Both the position numbers and the translations under genes were made by a program. The notes under the pieces are model-generated. The model did not search any database and was not told the origin of the DNA. It was given only the letters and a program-made list of their open reading frames with translations. From contig DAOVER010000067.1 in NCBI GenBank assembly GCA_030668875.1, positions 1 through 14,149 on the forward strand: DNA of 14,149 bases, given 5' to 3'. This stretch comes from Candidatus Heimdallarchaeota archaeon. GTDB lineage: Archaea; Asgardarchaeota; Heimdallarchaeia; Heimdallarchaeales; Heimdallarchaeaceae. Below, one piece after another: positions 1,027 to 6,571 of this stretch (within the stretch, counting starts at the first letter, position 1; each line of letters opens with the position of its first letter).

Positions 1027-2775
1027 TTAAAGTGCAAATAATACTCCTTGTGGAAGTATTAATAACTGCAACAAAAATGCTTGAATGAACGCTGTAATAT
1101 AGTCATTTTTGGTTATTTTCTGAACTAGAATGCTAACTGCAACTGATAATCCGAGTATTATTAATCCATTAAAGCTTCCTAGCATTCCAGAGAAAGACCC
1201 TAAAACTAGATAGAAGAGGGCTAGTAGGAAGAAAGGCACAAATCCGATTAGTGTGGAAAGAGTAAGATATAATTTTGATTTTCCAAAAGAACGCAACATC
1301 ATTTTCATTTCAAACAAACTGATATAGAATCCTATAGAAGTAAAGAAACTAAATATTATCAACCAGAAAATCCTTGATGTTGGGAAAACATACCACAGTC
1401 CTGTATTAACAAATAATGAGCTTAAGAGTATAATAACTGCTCCAGCTAGAACAGAAAGAACAGGTTTAACCCAGTTATAGTCTTTGTTTAAAAGATATTT
1501 GAGTTTGATCTTAAAGATTGCAGATTTCGTTAATAATTCTTCATCTTCAACTTCTAAATCTTGGAAACCAAATCTCATCCTTCCCGTTACACCTGGCATT
1601 TTCCCTATGAGATACAGAATTAGGAGCATGATACCATAACCGCTAATAAAACCAACATAGATAAGGTTGAAGATAGGTAAATCTATTGGAATTAATATAA
1701 ACAGTCCACACAGAAGAGCTGCTATTGGCAATCCGCCTAACCAGAGAAGTAATTTTGACCATAGAAACTTTCTTGGTTCTGATACTACAGCTGCATGGTC
1801 ATCATTTCCCAATCTTGTTTCTTTTAAGGGATCAAAAGATAATATGGTTAAAATGATTGCAGAAAAAAGACTCAAAGAACCTATTATCCAGAATATTATT
1901 CTCATTACAGTAGCATCAACATTTATTGATTCTACAGGAAACACCATCAAATCAACAGTCCATTCTTTTGCTTTTTTCATCACTCTTACTGAGAAAACTT
2001 CGTGATTGTGAAACAGATTCTTGACGATTAATAATTCCCTTGTTTTACCTTGAATGTTAGTAAATTGAGCATTGTAATCTGTTGTTTGTTGATCAGTCAA
2101 TTGTTCATAAAGCAAGAAAGCTGATTCAACAGGAAGTACATCATCCCATGAACCACTAATCATGATAAGGTTAGTTTCGGGAGTTTCAGCACTTAAACCT
2201 TGAACCCAAGCTAGCTCTGAATCTGTTTTTCCTGTGAAAAAACTAGGTTGAGCATTGACGTCGAGATTCAATTGTGTCCCTAACAAGATTAACCCATTAA
2301 CTGGATGGGGGTCATAAGTAACAGCTTGTAAAGCAACTCGTGCACCTATTGAATGCCCTAACATGATAATTTCAGAATTGTTCAATCCTGCAAGGTTAAT
2401 GAATTCGTTCTTTGCTAGTAATGTCTGATTCGCCAATCTATCAGTTTGAGCATAATCAAATCCTAACGATCCATCAGATCGACCGTGCCCTGAGAAATCA
2501 AATGCGAAGAGATGAAAACCAAACTCTGCAAATTCAGTAAGGATGTTTTTCATAGTAACATGATCAGTACCAAATCCTTCTAGAACCATTAAACCAACAT
2601 TTACTGTGCCAGGATAGTATTTGCCCCTTAGAGTATCTCCAGTGATAGGTTCAGTCATCGTTACATCTTGATAATTAGAAAGAGCACTATCGTTTACTTG
2701 TAACATTGTTATTGAAACAAATACTAACAAGAAAGATACAAGTGACAAAATGATTTTTACTTGAAATTTTCTCAT
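1027..2775 (-). CDS. Membrane-anchored alpha/beta-fold serine hydrolase with about 8 C-terminal TM helices
   Basis: N-terminal signal/anchor; FDFSGHGRSDG; nucleophile elbow GHSIG; candidate acid in SWDDVLP; candidate His in LFHNHE; long hydrophobic C-terminal half. Confidence 0.9.
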   Translation of the reverse strand: MRKFQVKIILSLVSFLLVFVSITMLQVNDSALSNYQDVTMTEPITGDTLRGKYYPGTVNVGLMVLEGFGTDHVTMKNILTEFAEFGFHLFAFDFSGHGRSDGSLGFDYAQTDRLANQTLLAKNEFINLAGLNNSEIIMLGHSIGARVALQAVTYDPHPVNGLILLGTQLNLDVNAQPSFFTGKTDSELAWVQGLSAETPETNLIMISGSWDDVLPVESAFLLYEQLTDQQTTDYNAQFTNIQGKTRELLIVKNLFHNHEVFSVRVMKKAKEWTVDLMVFPVESINVDATVMRIIFWIIGSLSLFSAIILTILSFDPLKETRLGNDDHAAVVSEPRKFLWSKLLLWLGGLPIAALLCGLFILIPIDLPIFNLIYVGFISGYGIMLLILYLIGKMPGVTGRMRFGFQDLEVEDEELLTKSAIFKIKLKYLLNKDYNWVKPVLSVLAGAVIILLSSLFVNTGLWYVFPTSRIFWLIIFSFFTSIGFYISLFEMKMMLRSFGKSKLYLTLSTLIGFVPFFLLALFYLVLGSFSGMLGSFNGLIILGLSVAVSILVQKITKNDYITAFIQAFLLQLLILPQGVLFAL

Positions 2776-2801
2776 GGTCTACAATTACCATCTATGCCAC
2801 A

Positions 2802-2817
2802 CTTATAAAAGATTTTT
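2802..2817 (-). promoter_or_regulatory. Putative BRE/TATA promoter of the hydrolase
   Basis: Minus strand reads AAAAATCTTTTATAAG, about 35 nt upstream of ATG 2775. Confidence 0.6.
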
Positions 2818-2871
2818 TTGAATCAAAAAGCAAAACAGAAAATAATCATATCTAAAAAGAGTTGAAGGGGG

Positions 2872-3705
2872 CTATCTTAGCAACTTTAACACATTCTCAG
2901 AATAATTAAATTCACGATCCTTACACAATTCAATATATTCTTGTCTTACATCATCTAATCTTGGTACTTTCATGCTTTTTAATTGTCCAAATATCAACGG
3001 ATTGTTCATCGCAGCTCTTCCAATCATAACGCCAACACAACCCATTTCCTCCATTTTTTTTACGTCCTCTTTAGTTTTAATATCTCCATTGGCTACAATG
3101 TTTTTTCCTGTCTTAACGCATTCAGAAAAAACTCTCCAATCTGCTTTTACTTCATATGACTCGGACCTATGTCTGGCATGTACTACGAAAAAATCTGCAT
3201 CTGCTTTTTCTATTAATTTGAGATAGACTTTCTCTCTCTTCTCTGTCCTATTTACTCCTAGACGCAATTTGATATTAACATTGTAACCATGATCTTTTAC
3301 AATTTCAACCATTCTTTTGATTTTTGTTGGTCTTTTAATCATTGCACTTCCTATGCCTTGTTTAACATAAGTTTGTGAAGGACAACCAAAATTAAGATTA
3401 AAACCTTCAAAACCTTTTTCTGGGGTAAAATCTGACATAAACTCAACTAATTTTTGCTCGTCTTTACCCATAATTTGGATCATTGTAGGGGTATCATCAT
3501 AAAGCTTAATTCTCTTCAAAGCAGATTTATTTTTCTTCACCAATGTTTCAAATCTTATTAGTTCGGTAAAAGTAAGATCTGCACCATATTTATGACAAAG
3601 ATATCTAAAACTGGAATCGGATATCTTTTCCATAGGTGCAAGCATATACTCCATGATAATTTGTTGTTTCTTTGTGTCTTTAAACATTTTTTGTTTAGAT
3701 ATCAT
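2872..3705 (-). CDS. dus: tRNA-dihydrouridine synthase family protein (FMN TIM barrel)
   Basis: LAPME, GADLTFTE, NLNFGCP (catalytic Cys), GIGSAMIKRP, VKLRLG-like IKLRLG, VHAR, VANGDI, GVMIGRAA. Alternative starts at ATG 3687 or 3654. Confidence 0.93.
   Translation of the reverse strand: MISKQKMFKDTKKQQIIMEYMLAPMEKISDSSFRYLCHKYGADLTFTELIRFETLVKKNKSALKRIKLYDDTPTMIQIMGKDEQKLVEFMSDFTPEKGFEGFNLNFGCPSQTYVKQGIGSAMIKRPTKIKRMVEIVKDHGYNVNIKLRLGVNRTEKREKVYLKLIEKADADFFVVHARHRSESYEVKADWRVFSECVKTGKNIVANGDIKTKEDVKKMEEMGCVGVMIGRAAMNNPLIFGQLKSMKVPRLDDVRQEYIELCKDREFNYSENVLKLLR
3542..3693. repeat. Left copy of a 152-bp direct repeat (dus 5' end); partner 6340-6491
   Basis: Hand alignment, ungapped, offset 2798: 18 mismatches in 152 bp (~88%). 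The first 14 bp, AATGTTTCAAATCT, are identical. Confidence 0.95.
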
Positions 3706-3733
3706 TAGAGAATGTAAATGGAAGGATAAAATC

Positions 3734-3823
3734 TTTTGGAAGGGATTTCAAATGGTCTACCCGAATGGTGAAAGTTCTAGCTAAGAAACCTATTCTTATT
3801 GATGCCTTTGCGCAATTGTGTAA
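3734..3823 (+). pseudogene. Internal fragment of a GGR-family gene (FGRDFKWSTRMVKVLAKKPILIDAFAQLC), homologous to 7606-7695
   Basis: Ungapped hand alignment, offset 3872: 6 mismatches in 90 bp, 5 synonymous and 1 non-synonymous (F/L); no start codon for the homologous frame at its 5' end. Confidence 0.92.
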
Positions 3824-3950
3824 ATTAAGATTAAAATGAGGAAGAGCACAGTTTTCAAATGATTTTTTGACATAGTTTTTACTCTTGCTATCCCATTCTG
3901 CTGGTTCTAAGAGACTTTTTGTGTTGCTTTATTTAACTTATACTTAATTT

Positions 3951-3962
3951 CTTATAAAGTTC
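3951..3962 (-). promoter_or_regulatory. Putative TATA element pointing toward the GGR relic and dus
   Basis: Minus strand reads GAACTTTATAAG; same TTTATAAG core as the hydrolase promoter. Confidence 0.4.
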
Positions 3963-4377
3963 ATCACATGCTTATCAGAAACATTTAATCGTATTCTTGA
4001 AAATAAAATGAAGAAACTAAGTTTACAAAAACTTATATGAAAGGGAAGGTTTAATACACGTACATTAACTACCTTGGTGAAGATAAGGTTGTTACAGTTA
4101 CAGATACTTCACTTAATCAAATTCTCAAACACCCAACTTGCAAAAGCATAGGAGTATTTGTCCAATAACCATCTATGTCTCAATATCTATAGTAAATGGA
4201 GAAACAGAAAAAAAATAAAAGGATTATAAAAAAATACGATTTCAACATTTTTATTATCTATGAAATATAGTGCTAAAATCTCTGCGAAGATAACAATTTT
4301 TCGAAAAATCGGTCTTAAGAAAACTGTTCTAGCTTCTGGTTGAACAATTGCGAAAAATGTGAAATAGATTATAAGCT

Positions 4378-4893
4378 TTATGATCTTGTATTTTCCTTAC
4401 TAAGAGTTTTTGAATGTGCTTTTTTTATCTTTTTTTCCACTATTTTAACAATAAACACACCTACTACAGCAACAATTAGAGAAATTAAACAAGCAATAGA
4501 AGTATAGATTAATGTTGCAAAGCTTGATGTATATGGATAATCAATAAAAGGAAGCACTATGAAACATAGACCAAGGCTTATCAATCCAATAATATTGAAG
4601 ACAGAGAAACTTTTTTGTGAGTTCTCTTTTTTATAGGAAAGGTAAAGTATAAGTGTAGTATAAATGAGGGCGAAAAGTGCAGGAATAATAATGGGTAAAA
4701 AGGCTTGTGTTTTAAATAATTCTTCAAAGAAATTAATATAATTTTCAAATCCTATCAAGAGCGTAATTAAAAAAAAGAATGAGTAAGTTGCTGAACAAAG
4801 TGTCAAAATAATGATTTTGATTTTCTTATGATCTAACTTATTAGAAGTTTGTTTTGTTACTTCTTGTGATTCTATTTCGAAGCTTTTTCCCAT
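4378..4893 (-). CDS. Hypothetical 4-TM membrane protein (171 aa)
   Basis: Four hydrophobic segments with Lys-rich termini; starts 4 nt after the stop of the upstream 416-aa gene, so probably co-transcribed. Confidence 0.8.
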   Translation of the reverse strand: MGKSFEIESQEVTKQTSNKLDHKKIKIIILTLCSATYSFFFLITLLIGFENYINFFEELFKTQAFLPIIIPALFALIYTTLILYLSYKKENSQKSFSVFNIIGLISLGLCFIVLPFIDYPYTSSFATLIYTSIACLISLIVAVVGVFIVKIVEKKIKKAHSKTLSKENTRS

Positions 4894-4897
4894 TCTA

Positions 4898-6148
4898 TTA
4901 CTCTCCTATAAAGCCTATGTGTGCAAAAACTGAGGGGTTAAATCCTCTTTTCATCAACCAATTCTCTACATATAGTGATATTAAATTGAAGGTTTTTATA
5001 ATAGCATTGTTATTAGAATAAAAATCATATAATAAATCTAATCTTGAATTTATTTCTGCAAAGTAAATACCTATAATTGCTTCTTTATTTATTCCAGCCT
5101 GCTTTAAAACATCATCAAGAGTTTTATCTTCGTATAATGTTGAGTGTAAGAATTTAGTTTTTCCTCCATCTTGATATTCCAACTTTATTGATTGAATATC
5201 CCAATTGTATATCTTTGCAAGCTCCATAAATTCTGTTATCAAGGTAGGATTTTCTAGTGTTAACAACGTGTTAACAGTCTTGTTACTATTCTTGGTCATC
5301 TCCCTTTCAAGTAAACTTAAAGACCATTTGTTAAAATCGTTTCTCTTAATAGTATCACCGTTAAAACCTAAATCTGATACAATTTTAAATTCGCTATCTG
5401 ATATTTTTCTTACTTCAATATTCAGATTGATCTTAGGAATCTTCAAAATTTCTAGTCTAGTACTTTTACGTAATGAAAGTGGTATATAAGTGTGTTCTTT
5501 TTCTGTTGAACGTATAAAAGGTCCTCCTCCACTACTTGTTATTTCAAAAGTAAATTCTTCTCGTAGAAGATGATCATAATCATTACAGCCAAGACCAAAT
5601 CCTTCTACCTCTGAAGTAAGCCAATGTGAATTTCGGTAAAAACCTGCTGTTAGAGCTTGGAAACCTCTCCAAAAAGAAGTAACGAAATAATCTTGTTCTG
5701 GGTTTAAATTAATATCAGGATCCCTAACATGAAGTTCCCATTCAGGATCGTCTTCTACCTCATAGTCAACAAAAGTATCTGAGATGGTTGTAACATAATC
5801 ACCATCATAATTAAAATAATGGATGGCAGAGCCACTAATTCTTCGTTCTTCTATTTCATGAGCATAATGATATCCTCTTCTCCACCATTTATGGAAATAA
5901 TCTTGAAAAGCTTGATCAACTGTAAAATGCGATGTAAGTGCCATGTTTGGAATAATATAATGACTACCATCAGGTATGTGAGTATTTGAAAAGCTTGTTC
6001 TTAAATTATATAAATAAGGAGAAAAATCAAATGTGTGTCCTTCATTATCATCTTGGTATACTAAAGCAGTAACTGAATTAGAAGGTATAATGAAAATACA
6101 TAAAATTATTGAAACTATCAATATCCTTTTTTTAGTTTTTAAAATCAC
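4898..6148 (-). CDS. Hypothetical secreted protein (416 aa, GTG start)
   Basis: Signal peptide MILKTKKRILIVSIILCIFIIPSNSVTA; long open frame; TATA-like element about 29 nt upstream. No family recognised. Confidence 0.85.
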   Translation of the reverse strand: MILKTKKRILIVSIILCIFIIPSNSVTALVYQDDNEGHTFDFSPYLYNLRTSFSNTHIPDGSHYIIPNMALTSHFTVDQAFQDYFHKWWRRGYHYAHEIEERRISGSAIHYFNYDGDYVTTISDTFVDYEVEDDPEWELHVRDPDINLNPEQDYFVTSFWRGFQALTAGFYRNSHWLTSEVEGFGLGCNDYDHLLREEFTFEITSSGGGPFIRSTEKEHTYIPLSLRKSTRLEILKIPKINLNIEVRKISDSEFKIVSDLGFNGDTIKRNDFNKWSLSLLEREMTKNSNKTVNTLLTLENPTLITEFMELAKIYNWDIQSIKLEYQDGGKTKFLHSTLYEDKTLDDVLKQAGINKEAIIGIYFAEINSRLDLLYDFYSNNNAIIKTFNLISLYVENWLMKRGFNPSVFAHIGFIGE

Positions 6149-6170
6149 ATTTTCAATATATTTCCTTAGT

Positions 6171-6183
6171 ATATAAAAATCTT
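6171..6183 (-). promoter_or_regulatory. Putative BRE/TATA promoter of the cargo operon
   Basis: Minus strand reads AAGATTTTTATAT upstream of GTG 6148. Confidence 0.55.
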
Positions 6184-6332
6184 CCTTTAATTAGAACTTC
6201 CGCAATAAGACTTTTTCCCTACATTGATGTAAAATCCAAAGCAATTGTGTTATAATTCCTTTCTCAATTTCTTTCATTGTTATAAGTCTTCTATTCTCAT
6301 CTCTAAAATGTTCAACTCAGGGTATGAACAAA

Positions 6333-6491
6333 TCAGCTGAATGTTTCAAATCTAGTTAGTTCTGTAAAAGTGAGATCAGCACCGTATTTTTGGTATAAGT
6401 ATCTAAAACTGGAATTGGTTATCTTTTCCATAGGTGCAAGCATATATTCCATGATAGCTTGTTGTTTCTTTGTATCTTTAAACATTTTTTG
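6333..6491 (-). pseudogene. dus: Truncated dus 5' fragment (50 codons from ATG 6485: MFKDTKKQQAIMEYMLAPMEKITNSSFRYLYQKYGADLTFTELTRFETFS*)
   Basis: ~88% identical to 3542-3693; 8 synonymous and 6 non-synonymous codon differences; homology stops at 6340 and TGA follows at 6335-6333. Confidence 0.93.
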
Positions 6492-6531
6492 ATTTACATG
6501 ATTTCAGCTTTGACAAAAACAAACCAGCACT

Positions 6532-6542
6532 AAATTTAAATT
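6532..6542. promoter_or_regulatory. Palindromic TATA-like element between the divergent dus fragment and GGR
   Basis: AAATTTAAATT; TTTAAA begins 37 nt upstream of ATG 6572 and reads the same on both strands. Confidence 0.45.
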
Positions 6543-6571
6543 AAACCTAGTTTCTGAATTAGATTGATAAG

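What the first reader, a model, noticed from the sequence alone, without database searches (positions are those of the whole stretch)
3542..6491. Islet inserted in dus with 5'-end replacement: candidate archaeal analogue of dusA-targeting islands
Seen: intact dus (2872-3705), then ~2.6 kb of unrelated DNA, then a second diverged dus 5' end (6340-6491; 152 bp, 18 mismatches) that stops right after a 14-bp identical block, AATGTTTCAAATCT (3542-3555 and 6340-6353), and sits divergent to the intact GGR gene. Established: proteobacterial islands with dusA-associated tyrosine integrases insert in the 5' part of dusA, restore the gene with an island-borne 5' end, and leave the displaced native 5' end at the far border. 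Inference: a circular element recombined at or near the 14-bp block, so the present dus is chimeric and 6340-6491 is the original start. Eight of 14 differing codons are synonymous, implying both 5' ends evolved as functional genes in different lineages rather than by decay after a recent duplication. I know of no description of this in archaea. No integrase is present here, so homologous single-crossover integration or trans-mobilisation is equally possible.
Basis: partly seen in the sequence, partly recalled or inferred. Interest (0 to 1): 0.75.

Follow-up and report, generated by a model that had tools for sequence, protein, structure and literature searches.

The report
Recombinase-free gene islet beside archaeal dus
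In an Asgard (Heimdall-group) archaeon, a small borrowed two-gene module sits between the dus and GGR genes, flanked by a live and a dead copy of the start of dus. It looks like the work of the cell's own sloppy and homologous recombination, not of an integrase-driven island like the bacterial dusA islands.

Summary
An intact dus (2872-3654/3705, minus strand) and a 155-nt, 88 % identical second dus 5' end (6340-6494) bracket about 2.6 kb. That DNA is missing in a congener where dus lies directly divergent to GGR (empty site).

The dusA-island reading is only partly supported.
- No tyrosine recombinase is in the window, and none was found in the whole 3.2-Mb MAG.
- The insert is a patchwork. 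It holds 18 nt of dus upstream DNA, a 100-nt GGR fragment (3724-3823), 535 nt of orphan DNA, and a 1.9-kb two-gene module (4359-6343).
- The module is 94 % identical to copies at an unrelated locus in other Heimdallarchaeaceae, whose flanking proteins are only 44-67 % identical. It carries no dus piece there.
That block is simply conserved coding sequence.
- The relic is decaying: D13N, C20Y, H21Q and I33T fall at otherwise invariant residues.
- The same module|relic joint occurs in two other lineages.
- Identity of the intact dus to its nearest kin falls from 97 % to 72 % towards its 5' end, so dus is mosaic here.

Best reading: illegitimate capture with target duplication, later moved and remodelled by host homologous recombination. 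This is an ordinary mechanism in a new host group.

The parts
2872..3654 (-). Intact dus (tRNA-dihydrouridine synthase family, 260 aa from the conserved ATG; the ORF runs on to 3705)
   Evidence: Pfam Dus 4e-49. NCBIfam gives Dus-type hits, all below the equivalog cut-offs. The start at 3654 is conserved in all congeners.
3446..3705 (-). Part of dus (codons about 70 to 1, plus promoter) whose ancestry differs from the gene body
   Evidence: Mismatches to nearest kin L075: 52/1872 over 1574-3445, 14/167 over 3446-3612 (p=6e-4), 26/93 over 3613-3705. The distal part is 92 % identical to G010 and to the relic A'.
3542..3700 (-). Repeat A: the dus 5' end (codons 38-1) and promoter box, still attached to the gene
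3706..3723 (.). u1: short dus-upstream stretch of the G010/L078 type
   Evidence: Window 3587-3724 aligns to G010:C90 4510-4373 at 88 %. The homology stops at 3724.
3724..3823 (+). B': dead internal fragment of GGR (gene nt 1025-1124), truncated at both ends
   Evidence: 91 % identical to 7596-7695. It carries 5 private changes against 2 in the live copy.
3824..4358 (.). Z: AT-rich orphan non-coding DNA of unknown origin
   Evidence: No ORF of 50 aa or more lies wholly inside it (one on each strand runs in from the 3' side, from 4340 and 4378). No blastn or tblastx relative in the own genome or in any fetched locus.
4359..6343 (-). M: horizontally moved two-gene module. It holds sec416 (4898-6148, signal peptide, beta-sandwich-rich), tm171 (4378-4893, membrane protein) and its own 195-nt upstream region.
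   Evidence: 94 % nt identity to L052, L053, L054, L065 and L080, ending at 6343 and at 4417-4421 (4359 in L062). No Pfam, PHROG or PADLOC family above threshold. The fold search gives only weak adhesin/pilin-like beta-sandwich matches.
6340..6343 (.). 4-nt overlap (AATG) shared by the end of M and dus codon 38: the illegitimate joint
   Evidence: Alignment of the window with L052 and L053. The same joint is in L065.
6344..6499 (-). A': displaced, decaying dus 5' end (codons 1-38 plus promoter box). It could still promote transcription into M.
   Evidence: D13N, C20Y, H21Q and I33T at invariant residues. About 8-11 private changes against 3-4 in A.
6500..6571 (.). u': dus-GGR intergenic remainder. 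Its GGR-proximal part is shared with G010 and G021. The 7 nt beside A' (ATTTACA) are shared with L075 and L079.
6572..7831 (+). Intact geranylgeranyl reductase family gene, containing repeat B (7596-7695)
   Evidence: TIGR02032 scores 169 bits, over its cut-off. Pfam FAD_binding_3.

Best explanation
The stretch is a small, recombinase-free, patchwork genomic islet in a Heimdallarchaeaceae (Asgard) genome.

Core of the islet. Its core is a 1.9-kb module of two genes: a secreted beta-sandwich-rich protein and a small membrane protein, both of unknown function. The module is resident at another chromosomal locus in other members of the group.

Step 1 (inferred from the joints). A fragment carrying the module was captured at the dus 5' end by illegitimate, microhomology-guided joining. 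One joint is a 4-nt AATG overlap at dus codon 38. In the sister form of the islet (L065) the other joint is a roughly 16-nt imperfect match inside the gene upstream of dus. Because the second joint lay upstream of the first, the target between them was duplicated. One copy of the dus 5' end with its promoter (A) stayed on the gene and keeps it intact. The other copy (A') was stranded on the far side, next to GGR, and has been decaying since.

Step 2 (inferred from mosaic ancestry). The islet, now bracketed by two direct dus-5' repeats, was passed between lineages by the host's homologous recombination, with the repeats acting as arms. In this genome the left exchange lies at about 3446-3613 and the right one at the promoter box, near 6492.

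Step 3. The islet was remodelled. Here a GGR fragment and 535 nt of orphan DNA stand where the sister form has a piece of the upstream gene and donor flank.

No site-specific recombinase is involved.
For: - Empty site in G016:C121, where one dus 5' end serves both window alignments.
- M is 94 % identical to copies in L052, L053, L054, L080 and L081, which share a different conserved context. The orthologous G000 locus (C33) lacks M, and its flank proteins are 44-67 % identical against 90-91 % for the M proteins.
- The homology ends exactly at 6343, with a 4-nt overlap onto dus.
- The same M|A' joint is in L065, which comes from a different run. It is also in a minor co-occurring variant in run X4, as a unitig of about 6288-6450 at depth 11.5.
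- The other joint in L065 lies in a roughly 16-nt imperfect match.
- A' is decaying. B' has 5 private changes against 2 in B.
- Mosaic dus: identity to L075-L077 is 98.1 %, 88.5 %, 95.8 % and 72 % across 2872-3445, 3446-3541, 3542-3612 and 3613-3705. Fisher p = 1e-14 for 1574-3445 against 3446-3705.
- Distal A plus u1 are G010-like (92 %, 79 %). The 7 nt beyond A' match L075 and L079.
- No PF00589 match in G000, none near dus in G001, G005 or G016, and none at all in G004. There is no Y1 transposase. The window ORFs have no recombinase domain.
- The content between dus and GGR varies among congeners: empty in G016, a 625-aa paralogue-family gene in G010 and G021, another gene in G002.
- Unitigs support all junctions.
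Against: - The polarity of the dus mosaic is not settled. The 5' end of the L075 lineage could be the one that was replaced, since it is 72-83 % identical to everything else.
- A 155-nt tree places A' with G016 and G010 at only 76 % support.
- The origin of the GGR fragment and of Z is unexplained by any single step.
- The L065 and L075 contigs are short, so the full sister structures are inferred.
- The X4 joint 3724->4421 has an unknown sequence between its two sides.
- Only assembled contigs were available, not raw reads. Neither a circular form nor an empty allele in the same population could be looked for.
- The MAG is 92 % complete, so a recombinase could be unassembled.
Confidence: 0.6

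Rival explanations
1. One local duplicative insertion, inherited only vertically. The module was captured once with duplication of the target. All later differences are decay of the dead copies plus local deletions. The sharp drop in identity to L075-L077 reflects a replacement of the dus 5' end in that lineage, not in this one.
For: - A and A' share codon 32 CTA exclusively, and Tyr18.
- B and B' share 2-3 exclusive states.
- Private changes run 2.5-3 to 1 on the dead copies.
- The distal 5' end of L075 is an outlier against all genomes.
Against: - The window has 8 private changes in 3446-3612 against a background of about 1.4 %.
- u1 beside A is G010-type, whereas the 7 nt beside A' are L075-type. 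This fits an exchange in both repeats.
- The relic in the X4 variant differs from A' by 13 of 80 nt, while the adjoining module differs by about 6 %.
- If the islet predates the 2.8 % split from L075, then L075 must have lost it.
Confidence: 0.25
2. A true analogue of bacterial dusA islands. A site-specific (tyrosine) integrase, since lost or acting in trans, inserted a circular element at a core within the 14-bp block and supplied a new dus 5' end.
For: - The insertion lies in the 5' part of dus, with an intact gene and a displaced 5' end.
- The same joint occurs in three lineages.
- Another displaced dus promoter and first-codon remnant exists in G022:C187.
Against: - No PF00589 in the window or in G000, and none near dus in four congeners.
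- The repeats are 155 nt, not a short att.
- The joint is a 4-nt overlap with a module that exists elsewhere without dus.
- A GGR fragment is also duplicated.
- The islet is 2.6 kb with no mobility genes.
- The archaeal Dus is not a DusA orthologue.
Confidence: 0.05
3. Assembly artefact: the contig joins two strains or mis-resolves the repeats.
For: - The source is a metagenome-assembled genome.
- A related strain co-occurs in X3 and X4.
- Unitigs break at the 28-nt core shared by B and B'.
Against: - Zero-mismatch unitigs at even depth span A-u1-B' and B'-Z-M-A'-GGR in four runs.
- The decayed states lie on both sides of the core in B', and the consensus states on both sides in B. The alternative pairing would leave no intact GGR.
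- The M|A' joint is seen independently in L065.
Confidence: 0.03
4. The module was moved by the abundant IS607/IS605-type elements of this genome (serine recombinase plus TnpB, and their roughly 395-nt non-coding derivatives).
For: - G000 has 32 TnpB-type hits, 5 serine recombinases and at least 26 copies of the element end.
- One such element sits inside the dus relic in G010 and L065.
Against: - No copy of the element end lies at or inside 3706-6343.
- The module borders have no such termini in any context.
Confidence: 0.03

Closest known systems
Homology-facilitated illegitimate recombination and insertion-duplication (Campbell-type) integration by host recombination. Described in Acinetobacter, Pseudomonas stutzeri, Streptococcus pneumoniae and E. 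coli (abstract of PMC3240628). Invoked for displaced orphan genes in Vibrio T6SS and Rhs loci (PMC5361080).
   Same: Foreign DNA without its own recombinase. One side sits in homology to a conserved host gene. The other joint is at a few bases of microhomology. A displaced, orphaned piece of the old gene is left downstream. The finished mosaic is later passed on by ordinary homologous recombination.
   Different: The host here is an Asgard archaeon with no known DNA uptake route. The displaced piece is the 5' end and promoter of a housekeeping gene, duplicated rather than replaced. A second nearby gene (GGR) also left a fragment. Nothing here is shown experimentally.
dusA-associated integrase (DAI) genomic islands and prophages of Alpha-, Beta- and Gammaproteobacteria (Farrugia et al. 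2015, PMC4482086; Vibrio dusA islands, PMC8409611)
   Same: Insertion in the 5' part of a dus gene. The gene stays intact with a 5' end of other ancestry. The old 5' end is stranded at the far border.
   Different: No DAI or any tyrosine recombinase. No 21-bp attL/attR-type repeats. The islet is 2.6 kb rather than 30-60 kb. The cargo module occurs elsewhere without dus. The target is not a DusA orthologue. Excision is not shown.
Flexible genomic islets between conserved genes, exchanged by homologous recombination in the flanks
   Same: The dus-GGR gap is empty, or holds different genes, in different congeners. Patches of 94-95 % identity occur between genomes otherwise 75-80 % alike.
   Different: Here the arms are two copies of the same 155-nt target rather than two different flanking genes. 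Insertion therefore duplicates the target.

Membership tests
dusA-associated integrase (DAI) islands | A DAI-family tyrosine recombinase gene next to the dus 5' end | tested here: not met
   No recombinase domain in any window ORF. PF00589 gives 0 matches in G000 (92 % complete), while 14 of 14 control genomes are positive. No integrase lies near dus in G001, G004, G005 or G016.
dusA-associated integrase (DAI) islands | Short imperfect direct repeats (attL/attR, 21-bp consensus) at the island ends | tested here: not met
   The repeats are 155-160 nt of dus itself. The 14-nt block is conserved coding sequence in congeners. The cargo joint is a 4-nt overlap.
dusA-associated integrase (DAI) islands | An island-borne 5' end replaces the native one and keeps dus intact | tested here: inconclusive
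   dus is intact and its 5' 260 nt differ in ancestry from the body relative to the nearest kin. However, the polarity is unsettled, and the module carries no dus segment in its other contexts.
dusA-associated integrase (DAI) islands | Excision as a circle, restoring the junction | not testable with these tools
   Only assembled contigs of the runs were available. No 3542/6340-type joint appears among them, and contigs cannot show rare forms.
dusA-associated integrase (DAI) islands | The target is dusA | tested here: not met
   The best NCBIfam hit is DusB-type at 151 bits, below its 293-bit cut-off. DusA models score 84-99 bits, far below their cut-offs.
Homology-facilitated illegitimate / insertion-duplication recombination | Illegitimate joint at a few bases of microhomology | tested here: met
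   AATG is shared by the module end and dus codon 38. A roughly 16-nt imperfect match lies at the other joint in L065. There is 1-2 nt at u1|B'.
Homology-facilitated illegitimate / insertion-duplication recombination | A homologous anchor in a conserved host gene, with donor-type sequence beyond the exchange point | tested here: met
   Identity to the nearest kin steps from 97 % to 92 % to 72 % inside dus. The distal part and u1 are G010-like.
Homology-facilitated illegitimate / insertion-duplication recombination | Inserted DNA is foreign and lacks mobility genes | tested here: met
   M is 94 % identical to copies whose flank proteins are 44-67 % identical to G000 orthologues. M has no Pfam, PHROG or PADLOC mobility hits and no viral-contig relatives.
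Insertion sequence / MITE / transposon | Terminal repeats, target-site duplication of fixed short length, transposase or its ends | tested here: not met
   No repeats at the module ends in L052 or in the window. No copy of the genome's IS607-type element end lies in 3706-6343.

The most novel reading that the evidence does not exclude
The two dus-5' repeats may turn the islet into a self-sufficient, homology-armed cassette. Any naive dus allele in the genus could take it up by host recombination alone. Each entry would re-create an intact dus and strand the resident 5' end. That would make it a recombinase-free functional analogue of dusA islands in Asgard archaea. The identical module|relic joint in three lineages, with different sequence on the other side and different relic alleles, would be its footprint.
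Probability: 0.3. Interest if true: 0.65.

Novelty: new member of a known kind. Interest (0 to 1): 0.38.

Why it matters
The case gives a concrete, junction-level example of how Heimdall-group Asgard archaea pick up and pass on small gene modules without mobile-element enzymes. The steps are microhomology joints, duplication of a housekeeping gene's 5' end, and later exchange by homologous recombination. Gene flow in these archaea bears on models of how eukaryotic gene content arose (PMC8813620). However, the mechanism is ordinary and known from bacteria. The specific claim of an archaeal dusA-island analogue is not borne out.

Tried and rejected
- Rfam and tRNA scans of the window and three related loci found nothing.
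- The 180 nt at the end of the G010 contig were suspected to be a group II intron. They turned out to be the end of an IS607/IS605-type non-coding element.
- The orphan stretch Z was compared by blastn and tblastx with the own genome, all fetched loci and the G010 upstream gene. No relative was found.
- The cargo proteins have no family in Pfam, PADLOC or PHROGs above threshold. The protein atlas gave no lead (score 0.77). The AlphaFold model has mean pLDDT 69, and Foldseek gave only weak beta-sandwich adhesin/pilin-like matches (TM 0.24 or less). No function is assigned.
- The viral contig scan for the secreted protein found nothing.
- The junction pattern, searched with up to 3 mismatches in 39 other representative genomes, was not found in those searched.
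- Exact-protein look-ups of GGR and of the G010 upstream gene found nothing on record.
- A 155-nt maximum-likelihood tree of the repeat is too weak (76 %) to decide which copy is foreign.
- The test with sites discriminating G016 from the main clade was marginal, p = 0.04.
- The laid contigs show no joint between the two repeats. Contigs cannot show rare excised forms, so this says nothing either way.


Full report
WHAT IS THERE

The window is the whole 14,149-nt contig C4 of a 3.2-Mb, 99-contig MAG (92 % complete). Its relatives are titled Candidatus Heimdallarchaeota or Heimdallarchaeaceae, including AB_125.

On the minus strand lies an intact Dus-family gene (ORF 2872-3705; Pfam Dus 4e-49). 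On the plus strand lies an intact geranylgeranyl-reductase-family gene (6572-7831; TIGR02032 over its cut-off).

The dus 5' end occurs twice: 3542-3696 and 6340-6494, 155 nt at 88 %, or 87.5 % over 160 nt by BLAST. The conserved start of dus is the ATG at 3654 (6452 in the copy). The upstream ATGs used by the ORF finder are CTG in G016, or are followed by an in-frame TAA in G010. The last 45 nt or so of the repeat are therefore a conserved promoter or leader box, not codons.

A second direct repeat was not part of this finding. Bases 3724-3823 are a 91 % copy of GGR 7596-7695.

The layout, left to right on the plus strand, is:
- dus with repeat A
- u1 (18 nt)
- B' (GGR fragment)
- Z (535 nt, without a contained ORF or any relative)
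- M (two genes on the minus strand: tm171 at 4378-4893 and sec416 at 4898-6148)
- A' (dus relic)
- u' (about 70 nt)
- GGR

IS IT REAL

Logan unitigs of four runs from one marine-sediment study cover every junction with zero mismatches and even depth. In X1 they span 2920-3791 and 3765-7663. The graph branches only at the 28-nt identical core of B and B'. Two of these runs may be the source of the MAG.

The alternative path through that core would pair decayed with consensus halves and leave no intact GGR. Instead, the five private changes of B' lie on both sides of the core, and B is consensus on both sides. I therefore accept the assembly, but raw reads were not available to me.

EMPTY SITE AND VARIABLE NEIGHBOURHOOD

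In G016:C121 the window aligns as two blocks. Window 397-3698 matches 6218-9481, and window 6340-7840 matches 9325-10856. The two alignments share one single dus 5' end, and dus lies directly divergent to GGR.

In G010:C90 and G021:C114, a 625-aa secreted repeat protein lies between GGR and the dus 5' end. G002 has a different neighbour. That 625-aa protein belongs to a family with about 3-50 matches per genome. Members lie near dus in several congeners. The dus 5' border is thus a synteny break-point in this genus.

THE CARGO IS A MOVED MODULE

Window 4417-6343 is 94 % identical to several contigs: JGI contig L052, ENA contig L053, L054, and L080/L081. In one contig, L062, the match runs on to 4359.

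In those contigs the module sits in one shared context: a 52-aa ORF, the module, then 256-aa and 292-aa genes, desulfoferrodoxin and further genes. The orthologous locus of the window's genome (C33) has the neighbours but not the module. Its neighbour proteins are 44-67 % identical, against 90-91 % for the module's two proteins. That is horizontal transfer of a discrete segment.

Among those contigs the module and its right flank co-diverge (L056 94.8 %, L055 97.8 %), so that context is the resident one. No dus sequence accompanies the module there. No repeats mark its ends.

THE JOINTS

The homology to L052 and L053 ends at ...CAGCTGAATG, and the dus relic begins AATGTTTC.... Four bases (6340-6343) therefore belong to both.

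It is present, exactly or with one change, in nearly all congeners.

The u1|B' and B'|Z joints are abrupt, with 0-2 shared bases.

THE SAME JOINT ELSEWHERE

A Logan contig from another run (L065) reads, in order:
- the end of a 395-nt non-coding element
- dus codons 24-38
- the same AATG joint
- the module
- 325 nt of the module's resident right flank
- a piece of the 625-aa family gene (87 % identical to G010's copy)

The last joint lies in a roughly 16-nt imperfect match.

G010:C90 ends with dus codons 1-24 followed by the other end of the same 395-nt element, at the same base (AAATACG^GT). G010's dus piece is therefore the orthologue of that relic.

In run X4 a minor variant unitig (about 6288-6450, depth 11.5 against 30) also spans module|relic. 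Its relic differs at 13 of 80 positions and looks G010-like. Another unitig joins 3724 to 4421 with unknown sequence between the two sides, which fits an L065-type islet.

The joint was not found in 39 other representative genomes searched.

The simplest origin for the L065 form is a duplicative capture. A fragment (module plus 325 nt of flank) from an L052-type donor was joined at two microhomologies. The target between them was duplicated: the upstream-gene C-terminus, u1, and the dus promoter with codons 1-38.

The window's form differs in the middle. B' plus Z stand where L065 has the upstream-gene piece plus donor flank. It also lacks the 625-aa gene between the relic and GGR. I cannot derive B' or Z from a single step.

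WHICH 5' END IS WHOSE

The relic is decaying. Thirteen codons differ between A and A'. Seven differences are synonymous and six are not, one of these being the joint codon 38. Of the other five, four are changes on A' at residues invariant in the 11 other genomes: D13N, C20Y, H21Q and I33T. Overall A' has about 8-11 private changes and A has 3-4. The argument that both ends evolved under selection therefore does not hold.

The intact gene is nevertheless mosaic. Three independent contigs (L075, L076, L077) are the nearest kin of the window's left flank. They carry the hydrolase gene, dus and then the 625-aa family gene, with no islet within their reach. Their mismatch density to the window is:
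- 52/1872 over 1574-3445
- 14/167 over 3446-3612 (p = 6e-4)
- 26/93 over 3613-3705 (overall p = 1e-14)

Distal A is 92 % identical to both A' and G010, and u1 is G010/L078-like. The first 7 nt beyond the relic's promoter box (ATTTACA) are L075/L079-like.

All six of these affinities are what a double exchange would give. An islet-bearing G010-like donor would recombine with an L075-like backbone. The left exchange would lie in repeat A (about 3446-3613) and the right one at the end of repeat A' (about 6492).

The caveat is that L075's own distal 5' end is an outlier, 72-83 % identical to everything. The replacement could therefore have happened in that lineage. The 155-nt tree (A' with G016 and G010, 76 %) and the site-pattern test (p = 0.04) are weak.

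NO RECOMBINASE

No window ORF has a recombinase or transposase domain.
- PF00589 gives no match in the MAG, and none near dus in four congeners. Controls were positive.
- There is no Y1 transposase.
- The genome does hold 5 serine recombinases and 32 TnpB-type hits.
- The 83-nt conserved end of the 395-nt element lies just downstream of TnpB genes.
- None of its ends lies in or at the islet.

COMPARISON WITH KNOWN SYSTEMS

dusA islands are defined by several features (PMC4482086):
- a DAI tyrosine integrase next to the gene
- 21-bp attL/attR repeats
- an island-borne 5' end
- circular excision
- sizes of 30-60 kb
- a range limited to three proteobacterial classes

Only the outcome is shared here: an intact gene plus a stranded 5' end.

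The anatomy matches homology-facilitated illegitimate recombination or insertion-duplication by host recombination (PMC3240628). It also matches the displaced-orphan patterns explained that way in Vibrio T6SS and Rhs loci (PMC5361080).

VERDICT

The dusA-island analogy and the att-like role of the 14-bp block are not supported.

The mechanism is of a known kind, seen here in a new host group. Interest is moderate to low. The one reading that would raise it is that the repeats make the islet a portable, homology-armed cassette. That reading is open, at about 0.3.

Noticed in passing
window 14009-14149; G000 C83:33630-34024, C29:51575-51969; L014 (G010:C90) 64-241 and 4513-4692; L065 1-26: The right end of the contig runs into a roughly 395-nt GC-richer non-coding mobile element, with at least 26 full or partial copies in G000, many at contig ends. 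Its first 83 nt also lie just downstream of TnpB genes, some next to serine recombinase genes, so it looks like an IS607/IS605-type non-autonomous derivative. In G010 and L065 it sits at the same base inside the dus relic (AAATACG^GT). The scan had already noted this element on other DNA of this genome.
   Followed up: partly
L034 (G022:C187) 1261-1321: This is another displaced dus remnant, 62 nt of promoter box plus the first codons. It lies between two members of the 625-aa secreted-protein family, next to sequence that lies upstream of dus in G007 and G011. G022 has an intact dus on another contig (C120).
   Followed up: partly
L014 2422-4299 (G010), and many loci: The 625-aa gene upstream of dus in G010 belongs to a large family of secreted repeat proteins of about 500-700 aa, with a weak BNR-like hit. 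There are about 3-50 matches per genome, and members lie near dus in several congeners. Such paralogues may drive the rearrangements at this border.
   Followed up: no
window 7841-8677: The PNPOx-like gene (8066-8578) downstream of GGR is present in G010 but absent in G016, where GGR is followed directly by the next gene. This is a second indel in the same neighbourhood.
   Followed up: no
L052 963-2339 vs G007, G009, G011, G012: A beta-eliminating lyase gene is 94-95 % identical between the L052 lineage and four congeners, while the next gene is only 75-79 % identical. Kilobase-sized patches of recent exchange seem common in this genus.
   Followed up: no
L063 9495-10476, L062 407-1078, L057 5159-5260: In contigs 99 % identical to L052 over the shared part, the module is truncated at window-equivalent 5399 or 5031 and joined to other genes. 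The resident locus of the module is itself structurally unstable.
   Followed up: no
L032/L033 (G019:C224 end, C250 start): The G019 assembly breaks inside dus between residues 61 and 62, close to the repeat border. This may be a graph branch from strain variation at the same place.
   Followed up: no
window 6333-6499 (minus strand): The relic keeps the conserved promoter box and an open 39-codon frame ending in a stop made by the module's first bases. It points into sec416 and tm171, so it may add transcription of the module.
   Followed up: no
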